This document shows, piece by piece, positions 14,046 through 33,400 of a DNA stretch of 64,000 nucleotides. A program made the translations under genes and the position numbers. Origin of the DNA: Pseudogymnoascus verrucosus (Eukaryota); the NCBI GenBank assembly GCA_001662655.1, contig KV460241.1; one strand, 5' to 3'. Positions within the stretch are counted from its first letter, which is position 1; each line of letters starts with the position of its first letter. The notes under the pieces were generated by a model. It worked only from the letters and a program-made list of their open reading frames with translations. It had not been told where the DNA came from and made no database searches.

Positions 14046-14999
14046 ATTGAAAATAGGGTCGATCTGGTTCTGGAGGACTGGGAGATTCGATGGGATTGAG
14101 GGGTGAGATGGGACGGGAGAGACTGGAGTGGTTGGGTTGGTATGGAATTTGGGCGCGTCCCAAATCATAAATCCAGAGGGTCGGGGCAATCTGCCTCGCG
14201 ACTCGCACTGCTATAGTGATGGTGGGGGGGTTGTTGATGGAACGGCAGAAGAATCAAGGATTGATTTCCGGCTGGAGGGGTGGAGGCGAAGGAAGGGAGA
14301 AGGGATTAGAGGTGGAAATGGAGGAGGATAAATAGATTGTTGGATTGAGTCGTGGATCGGAGATGTAGAGAACAAATGTCGAAATGGGTTTGCTTGCTTA
14401 GCTACGTGGATGTGGGTGCGGAGGTGGAAGAAGGCATTCTAATAAATCAGATTCACTCTTTCACGCTGGGCGGGGGATCTGGGGATCTCTTGCGGGTGGC
14501 GTTGGTGACGGTATGGCGCTTGCTAAGGTGCCGGTTTGGCGTGTGTAGGTTTGCAGGGCAGATGAAGTCGAGTTTGGAGGTTTGGGGGATGGGGAGATGG
14601 TGGAAATGGAGATGGAGATGGGGATGAATTGAAAATAGACGCGATGTTGAAGAGACTTGAGGTGAAGTCATGTATGTTGCTTGCGCCAGAAAGCTTAGTC
14701 AGCCGCCTAAGCCACATCCTTACGAATCACGTGCAACCTATGGACTCTGGTCAAACCGATATCAGTCACCTCTCACATCTACCGCTAGCAATTGTCATAT
14801 AACTTCCAGATGACAGGTTCCTGGTTGCATCATATCAGATCTTTATTACATTAAGAACGGAAAAAAGATCCTGGTAAGAGTTACTCTCGTGGGACCCTGA
14901 GAATATCAACCCCTGCCCTCCTGCATCTTTGATAAGCCGTCTCATCGACCACCACAAAGAGATCAAAGAGGATGAAAGACTCGGGACTTCGAGTCCTAA

Positions 15000-15757
15000 A
15001 TGCCCCACCTATGCAGCCGCCGAATGCAGAAAACCATTATGTCCCGTCACATTAGACTATTTGCTATACCACGCCCCGTGGTACAACAACCCCAACAACT
15101 CGTCTTGAGTTTGCCAATCCGCCAGTTTGCAACCCCATCACGCAACGGATCCGGCTCAGAATCACCCTATTCAGACGAGGAATACGCGGCTGCTCGGGAA
15201 TGGGCCTCAACATTCAAGCCGGGCTCATTACCACGAGACCTGGCACAAACACGATTTGACCGGTCATCAGGCAAGGGCGGGCAGCATGTGAACAAGTAAT
15301 ACCCCTCAAGCAATCATCTTCTAATTGAGAAACCCTAACGCCTTCCAGGACAAATTCAAAGGCCACGAGTGCGTGGCAGATCAAGTCAATAGCGCCATAT
15401 GTGCCGGCAATGGTGACCAAGGAGCTGCGTGCGTCGCGGTACTACTCTAAGAACTCTGATTGCCTCACCATTGCCTCCCAGGAAGGTCGCGTGCAGCGCG
15501 ATAATGAGGATAATTGCCATGAGAAGCTCTATGAACATATTGCGGATATCGCCAAGCGAATCATTCCGGGTGAGACGTCGGAGGCTGCGAAGGCAAAGGC
15601 AGCAAAACAGTAAGTATAGTAATCAAAAATGCAACGAACAAGTTGATAGCTGACAGTCGTTCGCAGAAAGAAAATTGGAAATGCCATCCGTTTGCAATCC
15701 AAGAAGGAGCACAGCATGAAGAAGCAATCCAGGAGCAGCAAAGGGGGAGATTATTAG
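15000..15757 (+). CDS. Mitochondrial peptidyl-tRNA hydrolase / release-factor family protein (ICT1/Pth4-like); 2 introns
   Basis: FDRSSGKGGQHVNK|TNSKAT with GGQ motif; basic C-terminal tail RLQSKKEHSMKKQSR. Confidence 0.88.
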
Positions 15758-16279
15758 GACGGCAGAGTCGTCGCGAACTGCCACATCTCGCAAATGATAA
15801 AGAGACATGCATGTCCACCGGGCCTAGGCTGTGGTAGGCTCGAAAGAAGTAATGGCCAACTGATAATTTGGATATCATAGTTGGAAGTGGGCCTTGGAGT
15901 CTGCCGTCGCGGGCAGATTTACACTGTAAGAAAGTCGGCGAATCAACGCAAGGCAGTCCGTCGATGAACGAGAATTTTAAGCAGAATCAAATGTAAATAA
16001 TAGATACAAGTATGATAATTATATAGATACCCATATCATAGTACGGAATGAAAATAATCCGATTGCTCTTTCCATAGTAATCATTCCAAGTGCTCCGCAG
16101 CATCCATGTAGTTCGAAGTATGTGTATCATTAGAATCAGGAAATGGTAGTGTCGATTGGTATTAGCAAGTAGCGGCGTTCAAGATATGTGTACCAGTAAA
16201 TGAGAGATTATGCTTCATTCACTGTCTCTAAATAAACTTCAACTAGCCATCCCCATCCCCATCCCCAAGAATGCCTAAA

Positions 16280-17470
16280 TTACAGGTTTGGCAGCCTCAT
16301 AACAGTATCCGTCACCTTGTTATCACCGCCCAACTGCCCAGCGCCCAGAATAAGCAAGTAGTCTGGGTCATCCATGACCAGCAAGCTCCTCGTATACGCA
16401 CTCTCCTGAGGCGTCTTATGCATGACCCACGCATCCTTATCACCCGCCTTGGTATTGACGAAGACCTCAGAGTGGCTCGCAGCACTCACAACAATAGTCC
16501 CATTCTTCCCCCCCGACGGGCTCCAAACAACGTACGGCGACCCCGTCGGCACGACGCCACCCGCGTTAATCACCATCTCCTCCGCCTCATCGAATTTCCT
16601 CGGGTCCGCAGCAATCTTATAGTACACGGGGAACCACCCGCTGTTAGCGGGATTATAGCCGCCGCCAAACTCATACAGCATGAGGTAATCGCCGTTGCGC
16701 AGGCGCGCGACGGTCGTCATCCCAGGGCGATTATCGTACGTAGCAGACGAGGCATCATCGACCGGCGGGCCCCAGTTCACGAGGTCCGAAGTGACCTGAT
16801 GCGACAGCTTTTGGCCATGTTCCGGGTCCCGCTGATCGGCGTAGTAGGCGATGAGCTCGTTCTTGTGGACGAGGAGGAAGGGTTCCCAGACGGGTGTCTC
16901 GCCGTTGTTGGGGATGCCGCGGCCGCCGGAGGCGACGCTGGAGACGAAGGTCCAGGTCTTGCCGGAGTCGCGGGAGGCGTAGATGTCGATCTTGGTTTTG
17001 CTGAGGTCGGTGGGGAGGGAGTTGCCGGCGCAGAGGATGGTGCCTTTTTTGAAGGTGCCGATGGCGCGGGGGAGGACGTAGAGGAAGGGCTGGTAGCGGA
17101 GGCCCCAGCCGTTTACGGTGTCTTTGACGGTGGAAAATTGGGCCCAGGTCTTGCCTTTGTCGGTGCTTTTGTAGATGGGGTAGTGGACAATTGGTGGCTC
17201 GGGAGAGTAGTTTTCCCTGGAGCGTGTTAGTTGAGGTTTTTACTAGGAAGGCATTGGGCTTTACCAAGTCGCGAGCAGAGTTCCATCCTCGAGTTGGGCG
17301 GTACGACCATAGAGAGTCTTTGGAGTGTTGTAATCCCGAGGCGGAACGAAGATTGTCTGCTGGGAGAATTCCGTAACAGCACACTTCTTAGGACCTGCTC
17401 CTGCTGGAGGTGCAGCATACGTGGAAGTGATGGACAAGGCCCACGCCAAACATGTGGCGATGCCGCGCAT
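16280..17470 (-). CDS. Secreted GH93-like exo-alpha-1,5-L-arabinanase (BNR/Asp-box propeller); intron ~17217-17264
   Basis: Signal peptide; LLATW|ENYSPEPP, STDKGKTW and SRDSGKTW Asp-boxes, GLRYQPFLY, PVWEPFL, RPGMTTVARL, GSPYVVW, AYTRSL. Confidence 0.88.
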
Positions 17471-18300
17471 TATGAGATTCTTGCTTCAAAGCTAATCCGT
17501 TGATGGGAATGAGACGATGGCAGAGAGTGCTGATCTTTCAATTTTATGGGTATGTGATGATCTTTATATACTCTTTTCCTAGCTAATTACCTTTATAATT
17601 ATCCCTGTGCAATAACAATGGAGGTCTGGGAGCTAAGAGAAATAACTAACCAACTTCATCATTACGTCCACGATAAACCGTACATAGAGAGGGGTAACTC
17701 ATAGTATCATCCCGCTATGGGGCCAATTTGATATCCATGAGGTGAATAAGTCCTCCAATATCGCGTTATAACCAACAAACAAACCGTGCCTTTGGACCTC
17801 CGAGGTCTGGTCCCGGTCGATCACGGCGTGTCCCCCCACATTCCCCAGGTATTCCCCGCCATTTTTGGTTGGCTTCGATTCTTCTTTCCACAACGTTATT
17901 CTGTGATTGGTGCATACTCCAGGAAAGTATCCCACGGTCGCGCGGTGGTGGCGGTGCAGGTGAATATATGCGGTGGTGGCGGTGCGGATGAATATATAAA
18001 GTGATATTTCGGAGGAGATTCTGCCGAATGCCCTGCCGGAGAATTAAGAACCCGGAAACATTGGCATCTATTTCGCCATTAGCAGACGTAAAGTCGGAGT
18101 CCGCTCTCTCGACCACCAGTATATAACCACCCACCATACGCTCATATCTTATGGTCATCACAGCCCTACTGCCCATGGTGTGTGCTGAATAGCCATGTGT
18201 AAATCAGCAGCTCCTTCAAACCCAATGTCACAGATACGACATGCAAAGAGTGCAGGTCTAAGCCAGTCGGTGCTTTGCTAAGCGTATCGAACGGCGCCGT

Positions 18301-18765
18301 GTTGATACAGAACACGTCAGTGAAAGGCAAAAGAAGCCTTACATAGACCTGGTCAGCTGCCTCAAAAAGATCAATGGGAGGTCATTTCTTAGTCTTGGTA
18401 GGTATCTTGTCTTTAAATCATGGCAGCCTTCACTCGCTATTGCTCTGCTTGGTTTAATGTGGTGTAAAGTTGCCACCCGCGAACAGGACCGGCCTGTCAC
18501 TGAAAGCAGTCGAAGAGTCAAGATGAAGGTGCGTCTCGCCGTACCCTAGCTTTGCTAACCGTCGTGGCTCGGATTTAGTGGAGGCTAGCTCCTGCAAAGC
18601 TAATGTCTTCTCATCCGTTCCAAGGAGAACAATAAGACTCGGTTGTTGCGAGTCGCCGAAAGGCAGGTCGGAGAGCAAGTTTTGAGGGCGATCGGAAGTA
18701 GTAAGCGAAACCTCACTGTCTCGTACACTGGGGCTAAACCAGTAGCTGTGATGACAGGATTTCAT
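18301..18765 (-). pseudogene. Frameshifted, truncated remnant resembling the N-terminus of large fungal patatin-like phospholipase proteins
   Basis: MKSCHHSYW...DRPQNLL...QQPSLIVLLG...HLHLDSSTAFSDRPVLFAGG, then in shifted frames GCHDLKTR and ADQVYVRLLLPFTDVFCI. The family is recognised from memory; no patatin catalytic domain is present. Confidence 0.55.
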
Positions 18766-19121
18766 TATAATAGCAGGCCAGCTGCAGTGAACGGTTTGAA
18801 TGGAGTGACTCGGGACGGAATGTCATTATACGTATAGCCACGAGGCTAGTCGAAGGGTCGAAATGACTCAATGATCTAGCTAGATTTATCCTGCCTCTTA
18901 GCCTGTAGCCTGAAGGGTTTCATTAAACTAAAAACAGGGCTATATCTAGCTTACGGAAAACACAGGCGGATATAGAGGTAAAAGTAGCTATCATAACGCA
19001 ATTCTATCGACTTCCACCTAAGCTCTCCTTCATACAATCCTTCTTCCTCACGAAATCCTGACTTTTCAATTATTATACTCTCCTTTTGCTTTGTTAAAGA
19101 TACTATCGCTTCAATCTGTTA

Positions 19122-19275
19122 CAGTAGAAGGCGAATTGGGTGTCGCGGGATTTTTAGTTAACTTTATTTGTGAGACTGCGGGGTAGGCCTGTGGCTTGTT
19201 GTGGCTTGCAGATACGTGTACTCTGGAGGTACCGAGAGAGGTACGTACCGAGGGAGGTAGAATTGGCGGCTCACC
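19122..19275 (+). repeat. Left terminal inverted repeat
   Basis: Reverse complement of 26544-26671; extra 26 bp at 19216-19241; preceded by TA at 19120-19121. Confidence 0.95.
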
Positions 19276-19477
19276 CAAAAGACTAGCAAAGCTGGCTTTC
19301 CTTACTCCCCCCATCCCAACCTTCGTCCAAAACCCACCAGAGTCAGCGCTCTTGTGTCAGCGCTTTGTGCAAAATACTTGATTGATTAATAGATTGATCA
19401 ACTCTTTATCAAGTACAGGAAGTTAGAGGGATGTTTGAAGCGATAAATTTACAAAAACCACTAAACCCAGACTCATT

Positions 19478-20636
19478 CTACGCCATATTCATTTGACTTT
19501 CATAGTTGCTTCCAAATATCATGTCATCCATTTGATCGGACATGTCATGATTCAGCATTCTTAGTCTAATCGCCCCGTCCGCAAACTTTGACCTGTCTTG
19601 CATTTGCACAGTTTCGAGAACATCGCCATGTACCGAGAGCTCCTTCTCAGCCACAGGCGATGATTGTGGCATGTTTTGCAGGTGTTGTTGTCTCACGTAA
19701 TACGCTGCGAGGTCAATTGCATGGCCTGGCCCCAAAGAACCGCCTCCACCAGATCCTACGGAAAATTGCGAACCCTTGAGGAATATGGGCGATTCGATTT
19801 GGAAGTCGGTATAAATAGGAGAAGGCATCGAACCGGTTGTGTCCAAAAACGGGCTACTTCGATAAGATGCTTCCTCGCAAAATAATAGCTCTTCAGCATT
19901 TGCAACCTGCCGTTTCTGGGTGCAGTCCTTCGAGAGGATTGAGTGATCGCTCTCACTGTTCTTGCTCGATCTGTGCGCCCCAGCGCTGGAGAACTCAATT
20001 CGGCACAGTATTCTGCTTTTTCTGTGAATTCATATGGCAGATGTCGTGAAGGCGGAATGCAATCAAGCTTTGAAACTATATCATGAATTACAGGTTGCCC
20101 TCTGTCGTTCAATTGTGGTTCCCCAAATTCCCATGATTCGTTGTCGCGGATCATAGTATAAAGCTTTTGGACAGAAGCAATTAGGGCGCATTGGGTGTTT
20201 TCTAGAACTTCAGCATATCTAGTGAATGTGCATTAATACAGATGTATAGCTCAAACAGACTAAGGTAGTGCTCATCCAGGAGGTAATTGCTTAAAGCCGT
20301 TATTTTTCCTGCTCCCAGCTATGCACACCAGCCCATCATCTTTACACCGTTTACAAGGTATTTACAAGGAAACTCTCCATCACACTTCTAAAAGTTTCAG
20401 TGACCGGTAGGAGTAAACTGATAACATCTAGTGTATACCTTCGTCTTCTTCATCCTACACCTTCCGCATGCTTTCCATACTCACTTTTGTCTTTTATTCG
20501 TTGCAACAGCATTATGTTTAAGTAATGAAGCAGTACTCTTCGCAGATAGACTCCGAGGTTTTGAAGTCTTGGGAAGTTTTCTTGATACATGCGAGCTGTG
20601 ACCGTTCTCAATCACAGGCGTAGAAAAGTCGGACAT
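19478..20636 (-). pseudogene. Zn(II)2Cys6 transcription factor pseudogene (cargo)
   Basis: RQK*VWKACGRCRMKKTK|CDGEFPC.RCKDDGLVC...|YAEVLENTQCALIASVQKLYTMIRDNESWEFGEPQLNDRGQPVIHDI. Lesions: TGA at 20481-20483, an 11-bp duplication-insertion at 20350-20369, a splice donor reading ATGAGC instead of GTGAGC, and a further 3' frameshift. Confidence 0.85.
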
Positions 20637-21192
20637 GGTATGAATAGTAATAGGCTATCAGAAAATCGTGTTGGAGGAGAGTAGAGAGGCTGAAGTACCA
20701 TTTATCAGAGCCGAGTTCAACGGGAATACAGCGCTCACCTACTCGAAGTGTGCGGCAGTTATATGTCATCATCAGGATAGTTTACTGTTCGATAGTTCGA
20801 GCCTCCCAAAAGAGGACTGGAATGTTGTCCAATGACGAACTTATTACGTCATTGTAACAAAGTTTACTCATCTGCTTAGAGAAAGTCTATGCTGCGTTAA
20901 GATGTAAGCCGGGTATTTCAACAAGCTCGGGATCGTCTCGCACGAGAGGTGTGGATCTTATCGCTAGGCACCGCGCGACTTGGGCATCCCGTGGTAGCGT
21001 GTGTTAGGAAGATATAGGTTACCAAGCTTCGATTCGGTATGAACACCTAGAACATCGAATATGGGAAATGAGGCTAGATGTCAAGGTTAGCAGAGGCAAG
21101 CTGTGTAGAATAGTTCTATACATAACAGTCCCGAACGTACCGTCGTTGCATGTTCCCCTTTCCAATCCTTTGCACTAGAACTGAGCTAAATT

Positions 21193-22678
21193 ATGTTTCC
21201 CAGCAGCGAAAATAATATCCGACCAGATATTTTTTTTGAGGTTCAGTCTCCTGGGCGCTGTAATATTGCCACATCCTTAGATCACTCATTGCCTGCCCCT
21301 CCTATTTTTACTGGACGCCAACTGAGAGGAACTCTAATCGTCTCTCATGGCGAGAGCCAAGAGCATGATTTCGATTATGTGCAGCTTACCCTTCAAGGTA
21401 TGGAGCGTGGATTTTGCCTGTATTGACACTGAAAAGACTAATGATAGTTTAGGAGAAGTGCATGTTAGGCTCGCAAGCCGTGTTCACTGCGAAGCTAAGA
21501 AGCCTGTGGGTATCTTTCGTTTCTGCTGATTAACCACGGCAAAGTCACTGACTAAATGAACCGAAGGTTATTTTCATGTCATGCGTCAAATTGGCAAATG
21601 AATTCCAACGGGTCAATCTTGGAAATCCTCATATTGTGACATATCAAACTGGGTTTTTCTTCGATGTTCCAGACTCTACAATATTGCCATTAGAATATGG
21701 AAACGACATCCCGCAAAGATTGCCACCTTCGATGTGCGTTGTCAAATCTGATTTCATATCTGCAGCCACTACAGAAAGTTATAATGGCGGCTCACTCGCT
21801 GGCACCTGCGATGTTTCGTACAGAATCGTGGCTCGCGTCTTCGCAGGCGGACGATTAAAATGCAACACGAGTCGAGAGATAGTATTAATTCCGGTCGAAG
21901 ATATACCGCCCCCACTAGACCCCGAAGATTTCGGGAAGGAATATCGACTTGTCGCAGCAACATCCTTGAGACAGTCATGGAGGTCAAGAAAAAGCGTGAC
22001 AATAGTTGTATCGTCTATGGAGCCTCGGCCTCTCATATTTCCTAAGTGCGAAGGTGGGTGCGAGAGTACCGACGTTCTGCTCCAGCTCAAAACTGAGGGA
22101 TTGTTGGACGGAAGTAGTGAGAGAGCCTTCATAGAGACCCAACTGACTGACTGCGAGGTTCGGATGTATCTCCAAGCGGTAACATATTTTTCAAAATACG
22201 AGCAAGTTGCAGCCATGTCAATAATAGAGGCGCAGCAGTCTCCATTTGTTATGTTAAAGAAGACAAGGTATCCACCAAACACGAAAAAGTTGCGCCTCGA
22301 CAGGTGGCGAAAAGGACGTGAGATAGCATGTAAGCCTGCTTTTGCCCACAACAATTTTTCAAAGACCGCGTGTATAGCTCAAAACTTACATCTGACTAAC
22401 TTAATGCAGCTGGGCTGTTCGAATGGGAAACAACGGTTTCAGTGAGTGCCATGCTTCCTTGGAGCTTCTCTCATCTCCCTTCATTCTTCACTGCCTTAGC
22501 AGCGAGAAGATATGCGTTTGATGTACAGATAACGTTTGGACATTGGCCTAGCATCAATGCGTTTCATAAGCCGATAAAACTTCGGATTCCACTGCAGATA
22601 GTCCATTTTGCAGTTGGGAAGCTCCCGGGTCGCTCTCAGGAAGAAGATGATCTGGAAGCTCCAGTATATGTATCATAA
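21193..22678 (+). CDS. Arrestin-like fold hypothetical protein (cargo); 3 introns; appears intact
   Basis: PPIFTGRQLRGTLIV...VQLTLQG|EV, FFFDVPD...LPPSM...CDVSYRIVARV, PSFFTALAARRY...LRIPLQIVH, C-terminal APVYVS. Exons join in frame with GT/AG boundaries. Confidence 0.6.
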
Positions 22679-22852
22679 CAAGGAATTGGATTTTTGATAG
22701 TAAATAAAATGCAGATTGCAGTGAAACCTAAATTAGACTCGCGCTCATATAAGCACAATAAAGACACAGGAATTTGAGTTGTGTATCAAATTGCTAACTA
22801 GCTACATATCATATAGAGGAGTAATTCCTATTGCAGTTACGCAAAAGGATAC

Positions 22853-24595
22853 TTATTTGTAAAGATCTCGGTGCTCAGCCTTGATCAAGTCGGCAGCCTT
22901 CTCGCCGATCATGTAGACTGAGTTCTGGATGCGACAGTCGGGGATGACAGGGATGATCGAAGCATCCGCAACACGAAGGTTCTTGATTCCGTGAACCTTA
23001 AGCTTAGGGTCAACAGCCCCTTGCTTGATGTCTTTGGAGAGACGGACAGTACCGCAAGGATGGAAAGCAGTCTGGCAGCGATCAAGCACAGCTCTATGCA
23101 TCTCCTCATCTGACTGTAGAGGCATTTGCCAGGGGTACTCGTCTTCAACGAGGTCCTTGAACCCATCTCCCTTGGTGAGGACATCGTAAGTGAACCTGAT
23201 GCCCTCACGCATGGCGATGATGTCAAGATCATTTGCGAAGAAGTTCAGGTTGATGTTGGGCTGCTCGAAGGGGTCGGCACTGTTGAGCTTCACCTCTCCG
23301 GGGTCGGAGATAGGGCGGACAAGGTCGACGACTACAGTGACGTGGTCGCCCTTAGGTGGAGTGGGATAGTGCCACTGGAATGCGCTGCCGAACATGCAGA
23401 CGAAGTCGAGCTCGAAGTGAGGCTGACCCTGCGGTGAGAAGGGATCAACTCCGCCATTAGCGGCCTTGGCCTTCTTGTAGGCGGCGTCCTTGTTAAGATA
23501 CTTGTCGATACGGGGAAAGCCCACAAGCTCTAGGAGACCGGAGCCAACAGGACCAGAGTGATCTTTCTTGTACTGGGAAACAACCTTGTCATTCTTAGGA
23601 CCCTTACGCAAGAGGATGTCGTCCATGCCAAAGCCATCCTTGACCCGCAAGACAAATGGGACACCAGGATGGTCAAGCAAGTGCTGGCCAATGTGTTCAG
23701 AGTCGACAATAGCGTCAATGCCGTGACGAGCCAACTCACGCTTAGGGCCAATACCACTGAGCATGAGCAGCTTAGGGCTCTCAAAGACACCCTGGGAGAG
23801 GATGACTTCGCGGGAGGCGTAGAAGTCGAGCTCCTTTCCGGAGCTGGAAATAATGGTCACGCCTTTGCAGGTGCGGTCGGCTTCATCAATGATGAGGCGC
23901 TTAGAATGATGCTCGGCTAGAACAGTTATATTGGGCTTGTTCTTCAAGAAAAGGTAGCTGCCAGAGCGGACTCCCTTGTAGATGGTGTCGGCACAGTGGG
24001 TGAGGCCGTTAATCTCGCCATCGTAGATGTTTGAAGTCTGGGGCTCGCCTGTAGACTTCCAGGCCTTCGTGACAGCTTCTCGAAATGGTGCCATATCGTC
24101 GATGAGCTCGGCGTGGGAAATGTGGATAGGACCACCGCCACCAATCTTCTTCAATTCGGGATTGTAAAGTTTAGCGTCATCATGATAGGAGGCGCTCTTG
24201 CGGAGGTATGGAACGAGGGGGTCCCACGTCCATTCCTTTCCACCGTACTCCTCCCATAAATCAAAGGTTGGCTTGCAGCCTGGGACCCAGGTGAAGTAGT
24301 TCAGGGAGGAACTGCCACCCAGTGCTTTGCCACGGGTGTTAGGCTTATCAATGCGCTCATAATCGTCACGCTTGACAAACGTGGTCTTGTAGGCCCAGTC
24401 ATGCTAGCTATTGCGGAGATCCATTGCGTTAGAAGGAATGGTAATCAAATCAACCTCTTCTGGATTCCCGACACCAGCCTCAACGACTAGGACGGTGACA
24501 TTAGGGTTCTCAGCAAGACGGCCGGCCACAGTGTTACCTGCAGTGCCGCCGCCAACGACAATAAAGTCAAAATGAGCTCCGTTGGTAGCTGCCAT
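22853..24595 (-). pseudogene. GMC oxidoreductase (AA3 family), intronless, interrupted by a single in-frame TAG at 24404-24406 (cargo)
   Basis: FDFIVVGGGTAG FAD motif, RG.ALGGSSSLN, SPKLLMLSGIG, AFHPCGT, VDPKLKVHGIKNLRVADASIIP, VYMIGEKAAD. The frame is continuous across DLRNS*HDWAYKT. Confidence 0.9.
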
Positions 24596-25278
24596 CGTGA
24601 TCAATCCTATAATTCCAACTTTCGGCAATATACGATGAGCAATGGTGGTGCGAAGGCTGGCGGCGGATGTATGTTCTCTTATACGTCCATACTTTTACTA
24701 TTTTGGAAGCTCGGCACATAATACGTATAGGTGACGATAGAATTAACTGACGCGGACCTACTTGACGACATCAAATCTCACGCTCTCTTTGAGAGAGTTA
24801 GATAATACTTTCACATCGAGAGTATAGCACTATGCTCTTCCCGCGTAGGTATTTACGATTGCATAGTATTAATGTAATCGTAGCTACCGAAATAATGGCA
24901 TAGCTCATTAGCCGACCGAGTTTTAGAAAGTATAACTTTGCAACTTAACTTATCTACGTCAGAGACGATAAGTTAGTCCTACCTAACAACGTCTCGGGCG
25001 AGAACGCAAAGTGCCGCCAAATATCAAACGAATAACGATGCTAAACACGCCATATGACATAATTCATATCCCCTACTATCACTGACATCGTTGCTGATTG
25101 ATCGGCTAGCTTGGCTCTACGCGCGATAGAATTCGTACGAATGGAAATGTCTAACGACTCGAACATAAAGCGACATATTCTCAGGCCGGTCCGAATATCT
25201 ACTCCGAAGCCCTCCAGCTCCTATAAATTTATTTTGGTTACTAAGAAATCATCAAAAAAATATCACACGTAAAGCAAA

Positions 25279-25614
25279 ATGTCAGACAAAATACCAATTT
25301 ACACGCTCGCTGAAGGTTAGGAGTCGTAGAAGTTGGATGGGCTCAAGCCAAGGAGGCATATCTAACATACCCAGGATGCCCTATTGCATCGTCGAGCACT
25401 GCGCAGACTTTTCGCTCTAGAAGCACGCCTGCCTCCTCCACTAAATCTCTCGCCCTCTTACAAGACACTCAGCTCATCGAGACCCTCGCTCATTTTTCCC
25501 GTGAGAGGATTCCAGAGCGTGTTGTTCACGCCCGCGCCGTTGGGGCCTGGGGCGAATTCGAGGTCACCAAGGATATTTCAACCCTCACCAGCGCCAAGTT
25601 CTTGAATGGAGTTG
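25279..25614 (+). pseudogene. Catalase 5' fragment (~90 codons, intron 25316-25374), truncated (cargo)
   Basis: [19 protein letters not shown]...[53 protein letters not shown] includes the catalase active-site His signature; similarity stops abruptly. Confidence 0.9.
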
Positions 25615-25933
25615 TCTTACCAGTTATATACGATCACATTATTACTACGTCTCGGCTTGTTAGTTCACGAACCCATAGGTCAATAAGGTAGTGAGTGGGG
25701 TTAATTGGACTAATTTAGTCTTATTTGCTGCACAAACTAAATACAGTTCATTCACCAAGACAGAGACAATAGCATCGAACTCGGGAGGCACAGTGTGATT
25801 CGCAAAATTCTCAGATAATAAGCATTCTCGCCTAAGTTGGCACATGAAGTTGCTGTTCCACATATGATGTTCTCATCCCCGTAAGGTTCGGCAATAGTAG
25901 AGTTACTCTCCAAAATACCCGGCATATAATTAT

Positions 25934-26244
25934 CTACATCAAACCTCCATACTCATCACCTTCTTTTTCCATTTTCTTATCCTCCTTGAGGTAGTCTTTG
26001 AACTCCTGTTTGTCCTTATTGATGTCACCTTCTAGCTTGCCGATCTCATTCTCATTCTTCTGTAGCTCCTTGGCATCGGCTGGATGACTCTCGTTTCCCT
26101 GCTGCCTGTTCTCCTGAGGGTGTTTATGATGGAAAAGCTTGTGGATAATCCCCTCTTTGCGTGTTGTGTGCGGTGCTAGTGACAACAAGTTAACACCATA
26201 TACTAATGGGTCCCGAACCGTGATAGAGACCAACTTTCTGCCAT
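25934..26244 (-). CDS. Small hydrophilic charged protein of unknown function (cargo); one intron
   Basis: MAE|TPHTTRKEGIIHKLFHHKHPQ...DYLKEDKKMEKEGDEYGGLM; intron GTTGGT...CACTAG. Confidence 0.65.
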
Positions 26245-26543
26245 AATGAGTTTGTAACCCTTTAAAGTAATGTCCGTGTCTAGACAACTAGGGCAAAATA
26301 TGACTTAATACTTTGACTGTTGAACTGACTCCTGACAGACAATAGAACGGAGCGGCTCACGTCTTATAGAACGGTAAAAAGGCGGGGAAGGAGAATATCC
26401 CTTACGTCATGCCAGTCTCTGCTACACACGTGAAGTGTTTACTTGTCGAGATCAAGGTTAGTGGGCGAGTACTCGCTTCACTACTTTCTCGTGCGAGAGA
26501 ACGGGCTCTGGAAACGGTTGGGAGGTCTAGAGGCCAGTTATGA

Positions 26544-26671
26544 GGTGAGCCGCCAATTATACCTCCCTCGGTACGTAGTATCTGCAAGCCACAACAAGCC
26601 ATAGGCCTACCCCGTAGTCTCGCAAATAAAGTTAACTAAAAATCCCGCGACACCCAATTCGACTTCTACTG
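26544..26671 (-). repeat. Right terminal inverted repeat
   Basis: Reverse complement matches 19122-19275; followed by TA at 26672-26673. Confidence 0.95.
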
Positions 26672-26675
26672 TATC

Positions 26676-27005
26676 ATGGTAGCTAAGGTTACTGTTACTT
26701 CTAAGTAAGTTTTCTTTTTTCTCTATTAGTAATAACTATAGCTAACATTCGATAGAGAGCAGAAGTTGAGTAAGAAAGATGTAGAGACTATGTTTGATAA
26801 GACACTCTATTCGAAAATTGCAGAAAATGATAATCGCAGCTGGACTGTATCATTTGAGAATAACGACTACTTGAAGTTCGCCATGAAGTGTGTAAAGAGC
26901 GATGCGGGAGCTGATTGGTTTCGAGCTTGCTACTTTAAAGAGGAGTATGCTATGAGTTTGTTCAAACGAATTATAACATCAGCGAAGAATCGGCTTCGAT
27001 ACTAG
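26676..27005 (+). CDS. Small hypothetical protein (92 aa); intron 26705-26755
   Basis: ATG exon MVAKVTVTSK, GTAAGT donor, GCTAAC branch site and TAG acceptor splice in frame to ORF 26766..27005. Confidence 0.6.
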
Positions 27006-28032
27006 CATCTCACAAAGAGCAAATAAACATATAGCCTACCTTCCCTATTTCTTTGTTACAGTAGACACAATAGTTGATTTAAAGAGGATATAATAAATGC
27101 AACCTTGATATAAACCATATTAGAACCCAGGTCTGTTATGATATGTTACTAGTAGCGCTTTATCACAAATATAAATTGCCAAATAGAACTAAATACATAT
27201 AACTATCAGTTCCTGCTGATCTAGGTTATGCTTGCAAGCAAGGAGAAATTCACAAGTAAACACGAGAAAAAGCAAGTCAACGAGTAGATCTAAATAAAAT
27301 TGAAGGAGATAAAGTAAAAATCACAGAAAAAAACATCAAGTGACTGTAAGTTACTGTAGCAATGCTGCTCGCACTCAGTACTTAGAGCTTTTTAGGGCTC
27401 CACTCATCATCGGTGGACGGTTTTGCACATGGTCATTTCCGCACCGCCGGGCTCTGTCACGCTTTTTACCTTTGTCATAGACCTGCCAGCTGTCCTGCTC
27501 CCATCCCTGCCTGCGGTCCTCTCCCTGGTTCTGCCCCCGCCCCTGCCTTAGCTTGGACAATCAAGATATGAGCTTGAGATTTGGCCGTGGCGCTTCTTAT
27601 CATATCTTTGTTCTGCGCAAGGTTGACAGCCTTACCCTTGCGTTTTGTCCAATTTGCTCGCCTTTTGCCTCGGCGACCTTGAGCTTCTTTATCTACTTCT
27701 TCCTCGATGGCGGGGGCTCTAACGGTTGTTAATTCTATATTCTGTTCTCGCTAAGTTTGGCCGCGGGTTTTCTGTTTCTGGAGCCAGTTTTGTGCTGGTC
27801 CTCGTTTGTATGAGGTTCACCGTAGTCTTATAGCTTCCAAGACGTGTAGTCATACAAAGGCAGATTTATAGTGAAGCCTAGGCTTGAGAAAATACACAGA
27901 TCCCATATATAAATTCTTAATCGTTGTAATCCATTCCAATGATCTAACCCTCCCATTTACCCCCTTAAACGCCGTAACTCCACATGCTAGAAATATACAG
28001 CATTTACATCATCTCCATCTCTATTTTTCACC

Positions 28033-29348
28033 TCAAAGACCACTCCACTCCAGCTTCCTCAACGTAACCTCCAACACCGTCTTAATCCCTTCATCCAACC
28101 CCTCAACAGCCAAAACCTTCTCCACCCACGCCGCCGTCTTCTTCGCCAACGCCCCCTTAACCCTCACCTTCTCCTTCCCCTCCCCTAACCTCGCCAGCGC
28201 CACTCCGAGAGCCCCCGGAAAGTCCGCTGTCAACGGGCTTACGCCCACAAGCGGCATACGAACATAGCAATCCCACGTCGCGGCCTCAGTAGGGAACCGC
28301 TCCATCATCACATCCAACACATGCTGCAGCACCTTCGGCAGACACGAAACTTGCGTGAAGACCGTGAACATATCAAAGAAATGCTGCGCCGCCTCCGCGC
28401 TAAAGAACGCCTGCTTGGCCGCATCATCAAAGATAGCGAGCGGGATCGCGCCCTGCAGCGCGGGGGTATTCATCGGGTCCTGCTTCGCCTCTCCGTCCAC
28501 CTTGACGCCCTCCATCGCGCTCTGTCCCAGACTCTGCGCCTTGAATTCCGGGAATTTAATCTCATCCCCCTCGAACCCCTGCGTCTCCTCCTCCACCTCC
28601 TTCTCCTCCACCGCCTTCACAGCCGGCGCATCTAATCCCAGAACTCTCCTCCTCGCCGCGATCTTGGCAAGGAAAATCATCTCCAACTTCGCGTACTGAA
28701 CCCACATCTCAGGCCCCTGATTACAAAACCTCGCACCCCTCTGCAAAAAGCTCCTCGCCTCCCCCATATCGCTTTCCTCCAACGCACATCTCGCCGCATA
28801 CACCCACAACCCGGGCACCGTACAATGCAACCTCAGCGCCGCCGTGAGGATGACCTTGAATTTGCTCGTCGCGCCAGCAGTTCGCGCGTACTCGAGGTAT
28901 GTCATCCATAGCCCCAGGTCGCCGGGGTGCTTGCGCGTGCCGCGCCCGAAGATGGCGAGGACGCGCGCTTGACCGGTGTGTGAGGAGGAGGACTTGATGC
29001 GGAGGCGTTGGCAGCGCGAGGCGCGGAGACGCTCGAGGTTGGATTCCCAGGCGGCGTAGCGGGCGAAGGTGGGGGGGGGGCAGCCGCGGGCGAGGAGGAG
29101 ATGTTCGAAGTCGGAGCGCTTTTTGACGAGGGAGCGGATTTCGTCCTGGAGGGGGGAGGAGGTTAGTTGGGTTTGGTGGAAGGAGAGAGGGAGGTTGTAG
29201 GAAGTGGGGGTGTTGGGTGTAAAATGTGCTGTGCTGGTTGTGTCCTGGGTGTACGCACCTTGGTGAAGATCTTCTTCTCTTCGAATTCGCGCAGTTGTGG
29301 AACCGCCTGTTCCATATAGAAGCGCACCTTATCACTTGCGCCCGCCAT
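28033..29348 (-). CDS. UTP6: U3 snoRNA-associated protein 6 (HAT repeats); intron ~29147-29258
   Basis: MAGASDKVRFYMEQAVPQLREFEEKKIFTK|DEIRSLVKKRSDFEH; ARSFLQRGARF; WVQYAKLEM. Confidence 0.92.
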
Positions 29349-30447
29349 TGTCGAACGTGAGGGAAAGTGGTGGTCTTGAGGTGGTGGTTGTTGAGTTGCT
29401 CTTTCCTGTCCTGTCCAGAAAGTGTAGCAGTATCTATCTTATCCAGCAGTCAACTAAACTTTTTAGCGTATATTCGACAAAATGCCTTCGAAAATGTCAC
29501 ATCGGCGGGCGGTGAGGCATAAAATGTTTAAGTTCTGCCACAGCCACTAAGACACGTACGGCGAACGGAACATCGGCTACCCAGCGATCAAATAGCGGGA
29601 TTAAAGTGGATTAGGGCGTGAGAGGACATGGGGGGACTGGCGTGGTTGCTTGCGGGTGCTGGGGCCACTTTAGCACTTTTAGGCACTTTTAGGCACTTTA
29701 GAGTGGTGTAAGAGGCAGCCAAACACGCCCCTCTAGCCCTTTAGCCCTCTAAACTCCTCTAAAACTCCTCCGATACGACAATCAAATCAACGGCACTGGA
29801 CAATGGACACCCCAGTAACTGCTGCTAGTAGTATAGTTAGATAGTTCCCTAGTAGAGACAGCAGCTAAGCCCCCCAGTCATGACCGCCGACGCCACCGGA
29901 GCACTCGGCTTTACGAACGATTTGTTACTACTAACAGCAGGTAACAGCCCAGGTACTCGTCGTTTAATGATCGTTTAATGATCGTTCAACGTCCGTAATG
30001 ACCGAGCTTGTGTTGTTACTGTTGTTGGTGTACTTACCTTGCTGCATGTACGAGACAGGCAGGTACTTATGTCTACCACCTTACTAACAGCCAAGGTGAA
30101 AGTCGACCGGTTATATTTCCCTCCCTGCTCTCTCCACCTCCCCTCCCTCCACCTTGCTTGTGCCTACTTGTGCCTACTTGTGCCTAGCCAAACCAAGAAC
30201 ACACTAACCTCGAACCTATTCCCATGCGCCTATGACCTTCCCCGCTGCCAGCCGATTCCCCCTTCCTTCGTGATACCTCCCTCAACTCAAACCTTTCCTT
30301 TCTACATATACTCCACGCTCGTTTGTTTACCCCCGGATGGGAACCCCAGCCATTGTGTTCTTGTCTCGGTTTGCGATTGTATGATTTGGTTTCTCCCAAG
30401 GGTTTAACTCCATACTTGCACCCTCAATTGAGTCCTGCATGAATGAG

Positions 30448-33400
30448 ATGGCGCCCAAGACAAAGGACGGTGACGTCTTGTTGGCGTTCTCGGGGAAGTG
30501 GGTTACTTGGGCTCACACCTTCACAGCTTATGGTGAGTCGCCCAGCCCACGCGAAACGAAACACGCAGCAGCTCGACAGCTCGTATCCAGCGATCCAGCA
30601 GATAGATTGATCGGAGAGAGAGAGAGCGAGCTCTAGCTGACAGGTGACACGCGCAGCTGCTTTTATCAGCGCATTGATCGTTGGGGTCTCGCTGCATTAT
30701 CATAAGATTGTCACGAACGAGCACTATGGGTACCCACACGAGTGGTTTCCCTCTGTGTCTGCGACGATCGGGGACCGCTACCCTGAACGCTCGTTCTTCA
30801 TGTTCTTCATTGCCATCACATCAGGTATGAGTCCATCCGGTGCTTTCCGCCGTCAAAATCAGGTACAATCGCAGCTAACAGCCAGGCCCACAGGCCCGAG
30901 ATTCGCCCTCGTCGGACTATGGTACCTACTCACAGCGCGCCCAGGGCAGAAGCTTGCCAAGTACGTGGCGATCGTCGGCATCTTTCGAACTATAACCTGC
31001 GGCGGTTGGACGTATGTCACCTCGACCGATGACCACGACTGGCACGACATCTTCATGATCTCATACCTTGTTGCGACCCTCCCGTGGACGCTAGGATGCT
31101 TGGCGCTGAGCCCGCCGAACCCAACATCTATCAAATACAGGAAAATATTCGGGGGCGCCTTCTTCGCGACGATCGTGCCGCTGGTTTACTTTTTCATTCA
31201 GCACAAGGTCCACAAAGTTGCAGGAGGTATGTCGCCGGCGTGGTTTTTGATTGTTCGGTTTTTGAATTTTTTTGACATGTGATACTGACATTTCTCATCA
31301 GCTTACACCACATACGCCTTCTTCGAGTGGTCTCTTGTTCTGTTGGATGTGGCTTTTGACGCCGTCACGATGCTAGATTTTGAGGCGTTCGAAGTTGTCA
31401 TTAAAGATGTCACAGGGGCGAGCAAGGGGTACGTTGAATGGCTTCTTCCCAAGTAGCAATAGACGAGATTTCCAAGGCATGTCATGCCGTCTTAATGATC
31501 AAAGTTCTAAACTGTTTTCTGTGCAGACAACCCAGGAAGGATAGTGGCGTCGAGATGCAGTAGGTTGGCCCCGGTCTGTGGGTGAAAAATGTTTACTAAA
31601 ACGTGCCTTAGTAAGGATAAGCCTGTCGTTCAAGTGCTGAACCAGTCTTTCCTTTGGAGCGACGCGATTGATGCTGCTGCGGAAGTCTATCATGGCGTAA
31701 GTTGATATTGCATTCTGCATAAAGTTGGTACTAATACTCTGTAGTTTGTCTTCTGGTCCATGTTGACCTCCCTCGGACTCTGTGTCTGGTGTAAGTTCTC
31801 CCAACAAACCACCCTTTCATAAGCTAACAAAACCCAGACTTCCCCCTCTGGAACATGGGCATCTCCGGCTACGAAATTCTCGTAATGGTAACCGTCACCC
31901 CCTTCCTCCTCTCCAACCGCACCGTCCGCCGCCACGTCCTCTCCAACCTCCGCCTCACCCACCTCCTCTCCCTCTCCGGGCTCGTAGCCTACAAGCTCGA
32001 ACTCCCGGAGCTCCGCCTCTTCGCCGTCGGCCTCGGCGTCGCCCTCTCCTGCCTCGCCTGGTCCGCAACCTGGTCCACCACCGCCTTCCAGCCCGTGCAA
32101 CTCGAGACTAAAATCACAGCCTGGACACTCGGTCTCATCCTCCACAGCGTCGTCAAGTTCGCGTGGCAAACTAGTAATCCCATCTGGCCCATCGTGCATG
32201 ACTCGAATGGGGGGTACAACTTCACCGGCCTCGTTCTCGCTGTCCTCGCCGTCCTGCGCACTACTAGCAATGGCAATAAAGGCACTTCCTCCCCAGTGGA
32301 GCGCAAGCAGCAGGGCTCCTCCGTCCTAGCCGCCTTCGGGATCGGAGGTCTCTTCTTCGCCCTCCACTCCCTCCTCTCAGACTCCAGCACAATGATCCTC
32401 TGGGTCTGGACCGGATTCCCCGTCCGCGGCCCCCTCGCCGCCCCCCACGGCGCCGTCACCATCGCAGCCATGTGCGCCGGCCTAGTGCTAGGCCTCTTCT
32501 ACCCCCTCCTCGCGCGCAGCTGGACATTCTACGGACTCGGCTGCATCGGCGCCGCTCTCCTCACCTTACGCGCCGATTGGACAGGCTACAGCGGCGCGCT
32601 CCTCCTAACAGTCTACCTCCTCGCCTTCTCCGTCCCCATGATCGGAGCAGCAGCCAAGCGCAACCCAGCTACGGTGTTCGGCCTGGGCTTTCTGGTATAC
32701 AACTTCGTCGTCCTCTTCCACGTCTGGGTCGTCGCCTACGCCTTCGTCCCCGGTGGCCCACTGGTGAGGGAACGCACGGATTGGGTCATGAGCACCACAA
32801 TGCTCTTTATCGGCTGCGGCGTCTTCACCATCTCTTCCTCTGTCAGCGCTGCGAAATCCCCCTCCTACACACCCCCCGCTCCCCGACAACGCGCACACAC
32901 CCTCTCCCTCGTCGGCGTCATCCAGCTCCTGGCGGTATGCGTCGCGTACATCCGCTTCCCAACCTTCGACTACACGCCCTACCACGCGCCCTCCAAGCTC
33001 ATCACCGCCGGAATCTGGACCGTCCACTTCTCCCTCGACAACGACATGTGGTCCTCGGAGTACCGGATGCGCGACGCGCTGCGGGACCTCGAGCTCGATG
33101 TCGTGGGGCTGCTGGAGTCGGACCTGCAGCGCGTTATCATGGGGAATCGCGACACGACGCAGTTTCTCGCCGAGGAGCTGGGGATGTATGTTGATTATGG
33201 GCCTGGACCGGATAAGCATACGTGGGGCGCGGCGCTGTTGAGTAAGTTCCCCATTGTGGAGAGTGAGCACCACCTCCTCCCTAGTCCGGTGGGGGAGCTG
33301 GCGCCGGCGATTAAGGCGACGCTGGATGTGTATGGGACGTTGGTGGATGTTTTTGTGTTTCATAGTGGGCAGGAGGAGGATGAGGAGGATAGGAGGCTGC

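What the first reader, a model, noticed from the sequence alone, without database searches (positions are those of the whole stretch)
19120..26673. 7.5-kb gene-carrying TIR element with Tc1/mariner-type ends (a fungal 'pack' transposon)
Seen: 19122-19275 and 26544-26671 are inverted copies (128 aligned bp, 5 mismatches, one 26-bp indel). Both start CAGTAGAAG, each is flanked directly by TA, and similarity ends at the TA. Between them are five cellular genes or gene fragments and no transposase. Known: TA duplication with CAGT termini is typical of Tc1/mariner elements (Tc1, impala), which are usually 1-2 kb. Gene capture is best known from plant Pack-MULEs and, in fungi, from tyrosine-recombinase Starships, which lack long TIRs. 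Inference: this is a non-autonomous, multi-gene-carrying Tc1/mariner derivative mobilised in trans, an unusual vehicle for moving a gene cluster in a fungus.
Basis: partly seen in the sequence, partly recalled or inferred. Interest (0 to 1): 0.92.

Follow-up and report, generated by a model that had tools for sequence, protein, structure and literature searches.

The report
Gene-carrying Tc1-type transposon in a fungus
A 7.5-kb stretch bounded by inverted repeats and TA duplications is a transposase-less member of a real Tc1-type transposon family that has picked up host genes, a known but rarely documented way for fungal genes to be moved.

Summary
19122-19275 and 26544-26671 are inverted copies (128 aligned bp, 5 mismatches, one 26-bp indel). 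Each starts CAGTAGAAG and abuts TA.

The ends belong to a real transposon family:
- A metagenome scan gave 38 loci. 38 of 39 non-duplicate ends follow TA, and 5 pairs are complete TA-flanked elements of 2.8-5.6 kb.
- One member starts a DDE_3 transposase just inside the repeat. Its full-length relative is a 362-aa DD34E Tc1-type enzyme.
- The window element has no transposase trace.

Verified cargo is a GMC oxidoreductase with one in-frame stop, a catalase 5' fragment and one intact gene of an unnamed family. Two further ORFs are unverified.

A near-identical relative has the same insertion. A more distant relative has contigs that join the two flanks with 307 letters where 306-308 are expected without the element. 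It also holds the repeat-cargo-repeat unit at about 93% identity.

"Five genes" and "gene cluster" are overstated, and fungal precedents exist. Side finding: 4 of 5 complete family members carry HET-domain genes.

The parts
19120..19121 (.). TA flanking the left end (one copy of the presumed target-site duplication)
   Evidence: 38 of 39 family ends in non-duplicate metagenome loci are also preceded by TA.
19122..19275 (+). Left terminal inverted repeat, 154 bp, terminus CAGTAGAAGGCGAATTGGGTGTCGC. It holds a 26-bp stretch (19216-19241) that the right arm lacks.
   Evidence: The first 48-100 bp match family ends in 38 metagenome loci.
19478..20232 (-). Two overlapping ORFs (183 and 158 aa) of unknown nature. 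Unverified as a gene.
   Evidence: No Pfam family. No usable Atlas hit.
21552..22445 (+). Cargo gene of an unnamed fungal protein family. It looks intact: from its Met at residue 9 it is colinear with residues 1-282 of a 284-aa relative.
   Evidence: 80 relatives at E <= 0.001, 13 of them at E <= 1e-30. The best is 70% identical over query 9-295. No Pfam family in it or in 6 of 6 relatives scanned.
22853..24595 (-). GMC oxidoreductase (580 codons) interrupted by one in-frame TAG at 24406-24404. A recent pseudogene in this genome.
   Evidence: Pfam GMC_oxred_N and GMC_oxred_C. Sequence read. 7 of 9 cluster relatives have Lys at the stop and the other 2 lack the position. 97.4% identical to a 580-aa Pseudogymnoascus record; 100% over 563 aa to a P. 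verrucosus record whose gene model skips the stop.
25422..25610 (+). Catalase 5' fragment only (profile positions 13-75 of 383), divergent from the GMC gene.
   Evidence: Pfam Catalase, 2.2e-22. No catalase hit in any ORF of 40 aa or more between 25600 and 26544. A paralogous contig in the same genome links the GMC 5' part and the catalase 5' part in the same order, with 1451 instead of 777 letters between them.
25934..26287 (-). 117-aa Lys/Glu-rich ORF. Unverified as a gene.
   Evidence: No Pfam family.
26544..26671 (-). Right terminal inverted repeat, 128 bp
26672..26673 (.). TA flanking the right end (second copy of the presumed duplication)

Best explanation
19122-26671 is one non-autonomous DNA transposon of a Tc1-type (DD34E, DDE_3) family, inserted at a TA in non-coding DNA between a BNR-repeat gene and UTP6. 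By protein identity the host is a Pseudogymnoascus-like fungus.

Structure (shown): its interior is not a transposase gene. It is about 7.3 kb of duplicated host DNA: one intact gene of unknown function, a GMC oxidoreductase and the first part of the neighbouring catalase gene. Both 128-154-bp arms are copies of the same end of the parent element, the end that lies next to the transposase gene in three other family members.

Mechanism (inferred): a family transposase made elsewhere binds the conserved terminal ~25-48 bp of both arms, cuts the whole unit out and pastes it into a TA, duplicating the TA.

Origin of the cargo (inferred): it was acquired earlier, either by template switching during repair of an excision gap or by filling of a short two-armed derivative.

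Current activity is doubtful. No second contig covers the stretches where only the unit's own contig was laid. The element is long for this superfamily. The only named family transposase record from the same genus in the list is a 161-aa fragment.
For: 1. Structure: exact TA|CAGT...ACTG|TA boundaries and 96% identical arms, with only two termini in 64 kb.

2. The family is real and uses TA:
- 38 loci came from a metagenome scan.
- 38 of 39 ends in the 31 non-duplicate loci are preceded by TA.
- 5 of 5 paired elements (2792-5553 bp) have TA on both sides.

3. Transposase:
- L034:1033-1845 starts 36 bp inside the end and hits DDE_3.
- It is 96% identical to P0134 (362 aa; DDE_3 at 3.4e-29, above the cut-off). 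In P0134 the second Asp and the Glu are 34 residues apart.
- Full-length but stop-riddled copies lie in L004 and L023.

4. Non-autonomy: no hit better than E = 1.5 for four family transposases anywhere in the window.

5. Insertion as one unit:
- Run X2 (about 99% identical) bridges both junctions.
- In run X4 one contig joins 18903 to 26762 with 307 letters between, against 306-308 expected if exactly the element is missing. A second contig joins 19020 to 26893.
- X4 also holds 19217-24604 at about 92-94% identity on contigs that start inside the left arm and end in an inverted arm (joint 19275/26498, opposite strands).

6. The two arms share one inner boundary. Both are of the long-match end type. 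In L034, L023 and L027 that type is the transposase-proximal end, and in L023 and L027 the opposite end is of the other type (L034 is cut before its other end).

7. Host origin of the cargo: paralogous contigs in the same genome at about 83-87% identity for the GMC gene and for the GMC-catalase junction.
Against: - The letters at the empty site were not seen. The 307 letters did not align at 80% likeness, so a single TA there is inferred from length only.
- The X4 contigs that carry the flank do not match the window further out. The 'flank' may itself be a repeated sequence, and these would then be related rather than orthologous empty sites. A further copy holding the element in X4 cannot be excluded.
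- Where the unit sits in X4 is unknown, because contigs break in the repeat.
- No second copy of the unit was seen in X1, X2 or X4, so amplification, the usual hallmark of a mobile family member, is missing.
- No intact transposase was shown in this genome, which was not available.
- No RNA data.
Confidence: 0.75

Rival explanations
1. The unit was built in place and never moved as a whole. A short two-armed (foldback or MITE-like) derivative of the family inserted at this TA. About 7.3 kb of duplicated host DNA was later placed between its arms by repair or recombination.
For: Both arms are copies of the same end with the same inner boundary, as expected for a short palindromic derivative. 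No second contig covers the stretches where only the unit's own contig was laid, in X1, X2 or X4. X7 has 3 contigs that share the arm up to 19276 and then differ (table 7).
Against: Run X4 has the same arms and cargo at about 93% identity, while both of its flank-like contigs lack arms and cargo together. That requires the filled unit to have reached another place or another genome. The cargo would have to enter exactly between the arms without disturbing either.
Confidence: 0.1
2. The unit is real, but it travelled between lineages or loci as a passenger of a larger event (introgression, horizontal transfer of a bigger block, or ectopic recombination between repeated flank sequence). It was not cut and pasted by a transposase.
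For: The sequence immediately around the element (about 18384-19121 and 26674-26953) occurs in X4 on contigs that do not otherwise match the window. One soil-metagenome contig joins 18304 to 27549 with 7 letters between. Together these hint that a larger block of 9.2 kb may be variable. ToxhAT moved with up to about 63-80 kb of flanking DNA (PMC6737239, passages read).
Against: In X4 the missing stretch fits the element's own boundaries to within one or two letters. TA lies on both sides. The tool itself warns that metagenome joints at under 95% likeness often come from other organisms or repeats.
Confidence: 0.08
3. Two independent insertions of truncated family members happen to flank resident chromosomal genes in inverted orientation.
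For: The terminus is multi-copy. Contigs with unlike sequence before 19120 number 4 in X1, 4 in X2, 6 in X4 and 28 in X7. Summed contig depth at 19205 is several-fold that of the flanks (the tool cautions that this is not a copy number).
Against: - Neither arm has a partner end of its own within the 64 kb, even at 7 mismatches in 25.
- The two arms are each other's closest relatives over 128 bp and stop at the same inner base, whereas other family ends match only 39-100 bp.
- The cargo is not resident: arms and cargo are absent together from the flank contigs of X4.
- The neighbouring genes are housekeeping genes.
Confidence: 0.04

Closest known systems
Tc1/mariner element with a sequestered ORF in Pyrenophora tritici-repentis (Manning et al. 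2013, PMC3538342; passages read)
   Same: Fungal Tc1/mariner-superfamily element with a host-derived ORF between its TIRs. It is called transduplication there.
   Different: That family keeps its transposase ('both coding regions'), carries one ORF and has 46 copies. The window element has no transposase, carries about 7.3 kb with at least three host-derived pieces, and was seen as a single copy.
ToxhAT, the 14.3-kb TIR-bounded element carrying ToxA in wheat pathogens (McDonald et al. 2019, PMC6737239; abstract and passages read)
   Same: Fungal class II element defined by TIRs (74 bp, about 92% identical). It has several passenger genes and is shared between species at high identity.
   Different: It is hAT-associated and includes a hAT-like transposase gene and a nested Tc1 transposase. 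No target-site duplication was found at any copy. It is linked to virulence. The window element has clean TA flanks, Tc1-type ends and no transposase.
Pack-MULEs and other Pack-type plant transposons (definition of transduplication as quoted in PMC3538342; the rest recalled)
   Same: Non-autonomous TIR elements whose interior is captured host genes or gene fragments, mobilised in trans. Fragments and pseudogenes are typical cargo.
   Different: They belong to the Mutator superfamily, have 9-11-bp duplications (recalled), usually carry short fragments and occur in many copies.
Starships (giant fungal cargo elements; 10.1101/2021.12.13.472469, abstract in search listing only)
   Same: Fungal mobile elements that carry accessory genes.
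   Different: Starships are moved by a tyrosine recombinase 'captain' and are tens to hundreds of kb (recalled). Neither feature is present here.
impala / mimp of Fusarium (recalled, not tested)
   Same: Tc1/mariner-type ends beginning CAGT with TA duplication, and non-autonomous derivatives mobilised in trans.
   Different: mimps are about 200 bp and carry nothing. No sequence comparison was made here.

Membership tests
Tc1/mariner superfamily, Tc1-like DD34E group (non-autonomous member) | TA target-site duplication | tested here: met
   TA abuts both ends. 38 of 39 family ends in 31 non-duplicate loci follow TA. A single TA at the empty site was not read.
Tc1/mariner superfamily, Tc1-like DD34E group (non-autonomous member) | Terminal inverted repeats shared with elements that encode the transposase | tested here: met
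   The window termini match the end of L034 (85% over 87-92 bp) and of L023 (84% over 100-102 bp). Both lead into the transposase gene.
Tc1/mariner superfamily, Tc1-like DD34E group (non-autonomous member) | Family transposase with DDE_3 catalytic domain and DD34E spacing | tested here: met
   P0134: DDE_3 at 3.4e-29 (102 bits, cut-off 28.6), plus a weak HTH_33 hit. Counting in the sequence printed gives 34 residues between the second Asp and the Glu. This was shown in relatives, not in the window.
Tc1/mariner superfamily, Tc1-like DD34E group (non-autonomous member) | Excision or insertion polymorphism | tested here: inconclusive
   An X4 contig joins the flanks with 307 letters against 306-308 expected, but the letters were not seen and orthology of that site is uncertain.
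Pack-type (transduplicating) TIR element | Interior made of host genes or gene fragments, with no transposase | tested here: met
   GMC oxidoreductase, a catalase fragment and a gene of an unnamed family. No transposase.
Pack-type (transduplicating) TIR element | Parental copies of the captured genes elsewhere in the genome | tested here: met
   Paralogous contigs in X1 and X2: 22910-24121 with 210 differences in 1212, and a contig linking 24095-24595 to 25373-25532. Whether these are the actual donors is not known.
Pack-type (transduplicating) TIR element | Several copies of the cargo-bearing element in one genome | tested here: not met
   Where only the unit's own contig was laid (for example 19806-20339), summed contig depth is close to that of the single-copy flanks: 219.6 against 178.8 in X1 and 52.7 against 52.7 in X2. 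The higher bins are those where paralogue contigs were laid as well. The tool cautions that depth is not a copy number.
Starship | Tyrosine-recombinase 'captain' (DUF3435) gene at one end | tested here: not met
   No such Pfam hit in any ORF of 45-70 aa or more within 19276-26544, nor in ORFs of 110 aa or more in the rest of the window. The defining feature itself is recalled.
Composite of two complete elements | Each flanking module has two ends of its own | tested here: not met
   Only two terminus-like 25-mers in the window at up to 7 substitutions.

The most novel reading that the evidence does not exclude
The window element is one face of a Tc1-type transposon family that serves as a small cut-and-paste chassis for passenger genes in soil ascomycetes.

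In the family's complete copies the passenger is almost always a HET-domain cell-death or allorecognition gene:
- 4 of 5 paired elements carry one, as does L038, where only one end was found.
- The HET genes fall into at least two unrelated groups.
- In L004 the HET gene is intact at 51% G+C, beside a transposase ruined at 32% G+C.

NLR-type genes (NACHT-WD40, patatin-WD40) sit directly inside several single ends.

If so, this family repeatedly swaps cargo. It would spread incompatibility or immune genes, and here metabolic genes, within and perhaps between species. That would make it a miniature, transposase-driven counterpart of Starships. The HET gene may also help the element persist.
Probability: 0.25. 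Interest if true: 0.8.

Novelty: new variant of a known kind. Interest (0 to 1): 0.6.

Why it matters
Cargo-carrying mobile elements are now seen as a main route by which fungi gain and exchange accessory genes. The well-documented vehicles are giant Starships and a few hAT-type elements.

This case shows, with clean TA flanks and an identified transposase family, that an ordinary Tc1-type element can lose its transposase and carry more than 7 kb of host genes. It also shows that the same unit exists in a second, more distant relative whose flank-like contigs lack it.

It gives a concrete, small and testable system: 154-bp ends plus a 362-aa transposase type, suitable for asking how large a cargo such elements move in fungi.

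The HET-gene cargo in the same family points to a possible link between simple DNA transposons and the turnover of fungal cell-death and allorecognition genes. Two full-text searches found no paper on this. One paper notes only that NLR genes lie near transposable elements (PMC13449251, passages read).

Tried and rejected
- Own-genome search: no genome is held for this window. Copy number, other cargoes and an intact transposase in this genome could not be checked directly.
- Earlier findings of the scan: none for this genome.
- Protein Atlas for the two unexplained ORFs: no usable hit for 21552-22445, and only a 0.75 chance-level hit for 19478-20029.
- Pfam on 47 small ORFs in the cargo and flanks: 0 of 47 with a family at E <= 0.05. 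The ORFs at 19478-20232 and 25934-26287 therefore stay unverified, and the flank sequence could not be named.
- Parts of the laid stretch without cover in X4 (15000-17135 and 27816-31000). It was tempting to read these as a genome background far more diverged than the ~93% identical cargo, that is, horizontal transfer. A hole in contig cover proves nothing, so this is not used.
- X7 metagenome joint 18304 to 27549 with 7 letters between. It may mean that a 9.2-kb block including the element is absent in a soil relative. The tool warns about such joints at under 95% likeness. No inverted repeat lies at those places.
- Reading the two kinds of family ends as a strict left/right asymmetry was rejected. 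L004 and L008 have the short-match type next to the transposase. Only the narrower statement is kept: in L034, L023 and L027 the long-match type is transposase-proximal, and in L023 and L027 the opposite end differs.
- Starship, two complete elements and a pair of MITEs: rejected (see the membership tests).
- L031, with two outward-facing ends that share identical 8-bp flanks, looks like a palindromic assembly and was set aside.
- Supplementary figures of PMC3538342 (Figure S5, the Tc1/mariner case) were not opened. Details of that element may narrow or widen the difference from this one.

Full report
**1. The observation**

Both ends were read directly. On the + strand the left boundary is ...CTGT TA|CAGTAGAAGG... 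with TA at 19120-19121. The right boundary is the mirror ...CTTCTACTG|TA TCATGG... with TA at 26672-26673.

The repeat finder returns two inverted pairs:
- arms 19117-19215 / 26578-26676, 99 nt, 95% complementary;
- arms 19242-19275 / 26544-26577, 34 nt, 97% complementary.

Similarity ends at the TA outside and at the same inner base (...GGCGGCTCACC) in both arms.

Chance does not explain this. The 28-nt terminus with up to 3 mismatches occurs twice in the window and in none of 100 shuffles. The terminal 25-mer with up to 7 substitutions has no third occurrence in 64 kb.

**2. Setting**

ORFs of 110 aa or more across the window are ordinary core genes: a WSC/glyoxal oxidase, ferric reductase, UTP6, Frag1, PGAP2IP, a protein kinase, a P-type ATPase, eIF3e, Img2 and an ARID protein. 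There is no transposase among them.

The element lies in non-coding DNA between a BNR-repeat gene (16280-17485, - strand) and UTP6 (28033-29328, - strand). With the element removed in silico, no ORF longer than 45 codons spans the junction.

No whole genome is held for the window. The closest named protein records are from Pseudogymnoascus. One cargo protein is 100% identical over 563 residues to a P. verrucosus record.

**3. The ends belong to a real Tc1-type family**

A scan of metagenome contigs with the terminal 25-mer gave 38 loci. Seven of them are near-identical duplicates of others. In the 31 non-duplicate loci, 38 of 39 ends are preceded by TA.

Five loci hold a pair of inward-facing ends with TA on both sides:

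| Locus | Coordinates | Length |
|---|---|---|
| L004 | 10001-15553 | 5553 bp |
| L021 | 2106-5200 | 3095 bp |
| L023 | 775-5093 | 4319 bp |
| L027 | 654-3445 | 2792 bp |
| L036 | 2074-5950 | 3877 bp |

Evidence for the transposase:
- In L034 an ORF opens 36 bp inside the end, runs off the contig after 271 codons and hits DDE_3.
- That ORF is 96% identical to P0134, a 362-aa protein with DDE_3 at 3.4e-29, above Pfam's cut-off.
- In P0134's sequence as printed, the second catalytic Asp (VMDNASWH) and the Glu (NPIEEFF) are 34 residues apart. That is the DD34E signature of Tc1-like enzymes.
- tblastn with P0134 finds full-length copies in L004 (residues 25-357) and L023 (23-362). It finds N-terminal remnants in L027/L020/L024, L008/L026, L038 and L009.
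- The L004 and L023 copies are riddled with stops.

So the family has autonomous-type members, decayed members and internally deleted members.

**4. The window copy**

It shares only its ends with those loci: 39-48 bp with most, and 85-102 bp with six non-duplicate ends. None of four family transposases gives a tblastn hit better than E = 1.5 anywhere in the window.

The six long-match ends include those of L034, L023 (5093) and L027 (3445), which lie next to the 5' end of the transposase gene. The opposite ends of L023 and L027 are of the short-match type.

The window element therefore carries two copies of the same, transposase-proximal end, cut at the same inner base. This points to an origin from a short two-armed derivative, or from duplication of one end. 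It argues against two independent truncations. This asymmetry is not universal in the family: L004 and L008 have the other end type beside the transposase.

**5. Cargo**

- **GMC oxidoreductase (24595 to 22853, - strand).** It has 580 codons, with GMC_oxred_N and GMC_oxred_C hits. It is broken by a single in-frame TAG at 24406-24404. Of 9 relatives from its 90% cluster, 7 have Lys at that position and 2 lack it. One of those 2 is a 563-aa gene model, identical to the window, that skips the stop. The best intact relative is 97.4% identical, and outside the cluster identities fall to 84% or less.
- **Catalase fragment (25422-25610, + strand, divergent from the GMC gene).** It covers only profile positions 13-75 of 383. 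Nothing catalase-like follows.
- **Gene of an unnamed family (21552-22445, + strand).** It has 80 relatives at E <= 0.001. It is colinear with residues 1-282 of a 284-aa relative, and has no Pfam domain. It looks intact.
- **ORFs at 19478-20232 and 25934-26287.** No detectable relatives.

The cargo has diverged paralogues in the same genome. One X1 contig matches 22910-24121 with 210 differences in 1212. Another links 24095-24595 to 25373-25532 with 1451 instead of 777 letters between. GMC and the catalase start therefore came, or descend, as one block from a locus with the same divergent gene pair.

"Five genes" and "gene cluster" are thus overstated. What is verified is one intact gene, one fresh pseudogene and one fragment.

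**6. Was it inserted as one unit?**

One run search and one laying of four runs on 15000-31000 gave the following.

- **X1** is probably the source and is not independent.
- **X2** is another organism label, about 99% identical. It bridges both junctions: one contig covers 15000-21950 and one covers 25504-31000. The structure is therefore not an assembly artefact, and a very close relative shares the insertion.
- **X4** is a third organism label.
  - One contig matches 18384-18903 and then 26762-26953, with 307 letters between. If exactly the element and one TA were missing, 306 letters would be expected.
  - A second contig joins 19020 to 26893.
  - The same run holds 19217-22606 and 22580-24604 at about 92-94% identity. 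These contigs start inside the left arm and end in an inverted arm (joint 19275/26498 on opposite strands).

Arms and cargo therefore travel together, and they are absent together from the flank sequence.

Limits of this evidence:
- The 307 letters were not shown and did not align at 80% likeness.
- The X4 flank contigs do not match the window further out, so the flank may itself be repeated and these may be related rather than orthologous empty sites.
- Contigs break in the repeat, so the unit's location in X4 is unknown.

The terminus is multi-copy. Contigs with unlike sequence before 19120 number 4 (X1), 4 (X2), 6 (X4) and 28 (X7). Where only the unit's own contig was laid (for example 19806-20339), depth is close to that of the flanks; the higher bins are those where paralogue contigs were also laid. 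The tool cautions that depth is not a copy number.

**7. Mechanism**

Shown:
- TA flanks;
- family ends shared with transposase-encoding members;
- no transposase in the window element;
- host-derived interior;
- the same insertion in a close relative;
- a length-consistent empty site, plus a separate copy of the unit, in a more distant relative.

Inferred:
- A DD34E transposase supplied in trans binds the conserved terminal ~25-48 bp of both arms and moves the whole 7.55 kb by cut-and-paste into TA.
- The cargo was captured before that, by template switching during gap repair or by filling of a two-armed derivative.

Present-day activity is doubtful for three reasons. No second copy of the unit was seen. 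The element is long for a superfamily whose activity falls with cargo size (general knowledge; the abstract of PMC1635535 says transposons show diminished activity above 8 kb). The only named family transposase record from the same genus in the list is a 161-aa fragment (P0231).

I put 0.75 on "one Tc1-type non-autonomous element inserted as a unit". The rivals are:
- built in place, 0.10;
- moved as part of a larger block, 0.08;
- two independent insertions, 0.04.

**8. Comparison with what is known**

Transduplication by DNA transposons in fungi was first reported in Pyrenophora tritici-repentis. [quoted passage not shown]

ToxhAT is a 14.3-kb unit with 74-bp TIRs that are about 92% identical. 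It has eight ORFs, including a hAT-like transposase and a nested Tc1 transposase, and no target-site duplication at any copy (PMC6737239, passages read).

The window element works like a Pack-type element. It is a member of the Tc1-like group by its ends and TA. It differs from both fungal precedents in three ways: it has no transposase, it has clean TA flanks, and it has several kb of multi-gene cargo.

It is not a Starship. There is no tyrosine recombinase, and it is only 7.5 kb.

Hence: a new variant of a known kind, of moderate interest.

**9. Side finding**

- 4 of 5 paired family elements contain a HET-domain ORF: L004 (814 aa), L036 (760 aa), L021 (429 aa) and L023 (198 + 389 aa). L038 has one (583 aa) between its one detected end and a transposase remnant.
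- The HET proteins fall into at least two groups. L036, L038 and L023 are 27-41% identical to each other. L004 matches none of them and only weakly matches L021.
- In L004 the HET ORF is open at 51.4% G+C, while the transposase beside it has many stops at 31.6% G+C.
- NLR-type ORFs lie just inside single ends in L022 (NACHT_N, NACHT, WD40), L009 (patatin, WD40), L015 and L006. A second end was not found for these, so they may lie outside an element.

Two full-text searches found no paper describing HET genes inside Tc1-type elements. [quoted passage not shown]

Noticed in passing
L004:10274-12715, L036:3097-5376, L021:2684-3970, L023:1302-3065, L038:7096-8844: HET-domain ORFs lie inside 4 of 5 TA-flanked paired elements of the same TIR family, and in L038 between its one detected end and a transposase remnant. 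The HET proteins fall into at least two unrelated groups.
   Followed up: partly
L022:6084-11129, L009:7690-9574, L015:4901-6571, L006:3763-4386: NLR-type ORFs (NACHT_N/NACHT/WD40; patatin/WD40) lie directly inward of single family ends. No second end was found, so it is open whether they are cargo.
   Followed up: no
L004:14374-15372 versus L004:10274-12715: Within one TIR-bounded element the transposase is AT-rich (31.6% G+C) with many stops, while the HET ORF is open at 51.4% G+C. This is as if repeat-induced point mutation hit only the repeated part.
   Followed up: partly
window 24404-24406: There is a single in-frame TAG in an otherwise intact 580-codon GMC oxidoreductase. 7 of 9 relatives have Lys there. 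A public 563-aa gene model identical to the window avoids the stop.
   Followed up: yes
window 18305-27548: One soil-metagenome contig (run X7) joins 18304 to 27549 with 7 letters between. In run X4 the sequence just around the element occurs on contigs that do not match the window further out. The element may sit inside another variable or repeated block of about 1.7 kb.
   Followed up: partly
window 22910-25532: A paralogous locus in the same genome (about 83-87% identical contigs) has the GMC gene and the catalase start in the same divergent arrangement, with a longer spacer (1451 against 777 letters). It is a likely source or sister of the cargo.
   Followed up: partly
L023:3200-3703: An ORF with the HTH_ABP1_N domain (a pogo/CENP-B-type DNA-binding domain) lies inside the L023 element. 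It is probably a fragment of a second transposon family nested in it.
   Followed up: no
L031:2196-2220 and 4106-4130: Two outward-facing family ends have identical 8-bp flanks. This is a palindromic arrangement that may be an assembly artefact.
   Followed up: no
window 17942-17997: A 28-bp unit is repeated twice in tandem (93% identical) in the intergenic DNA left of the element.
   Followed up: no
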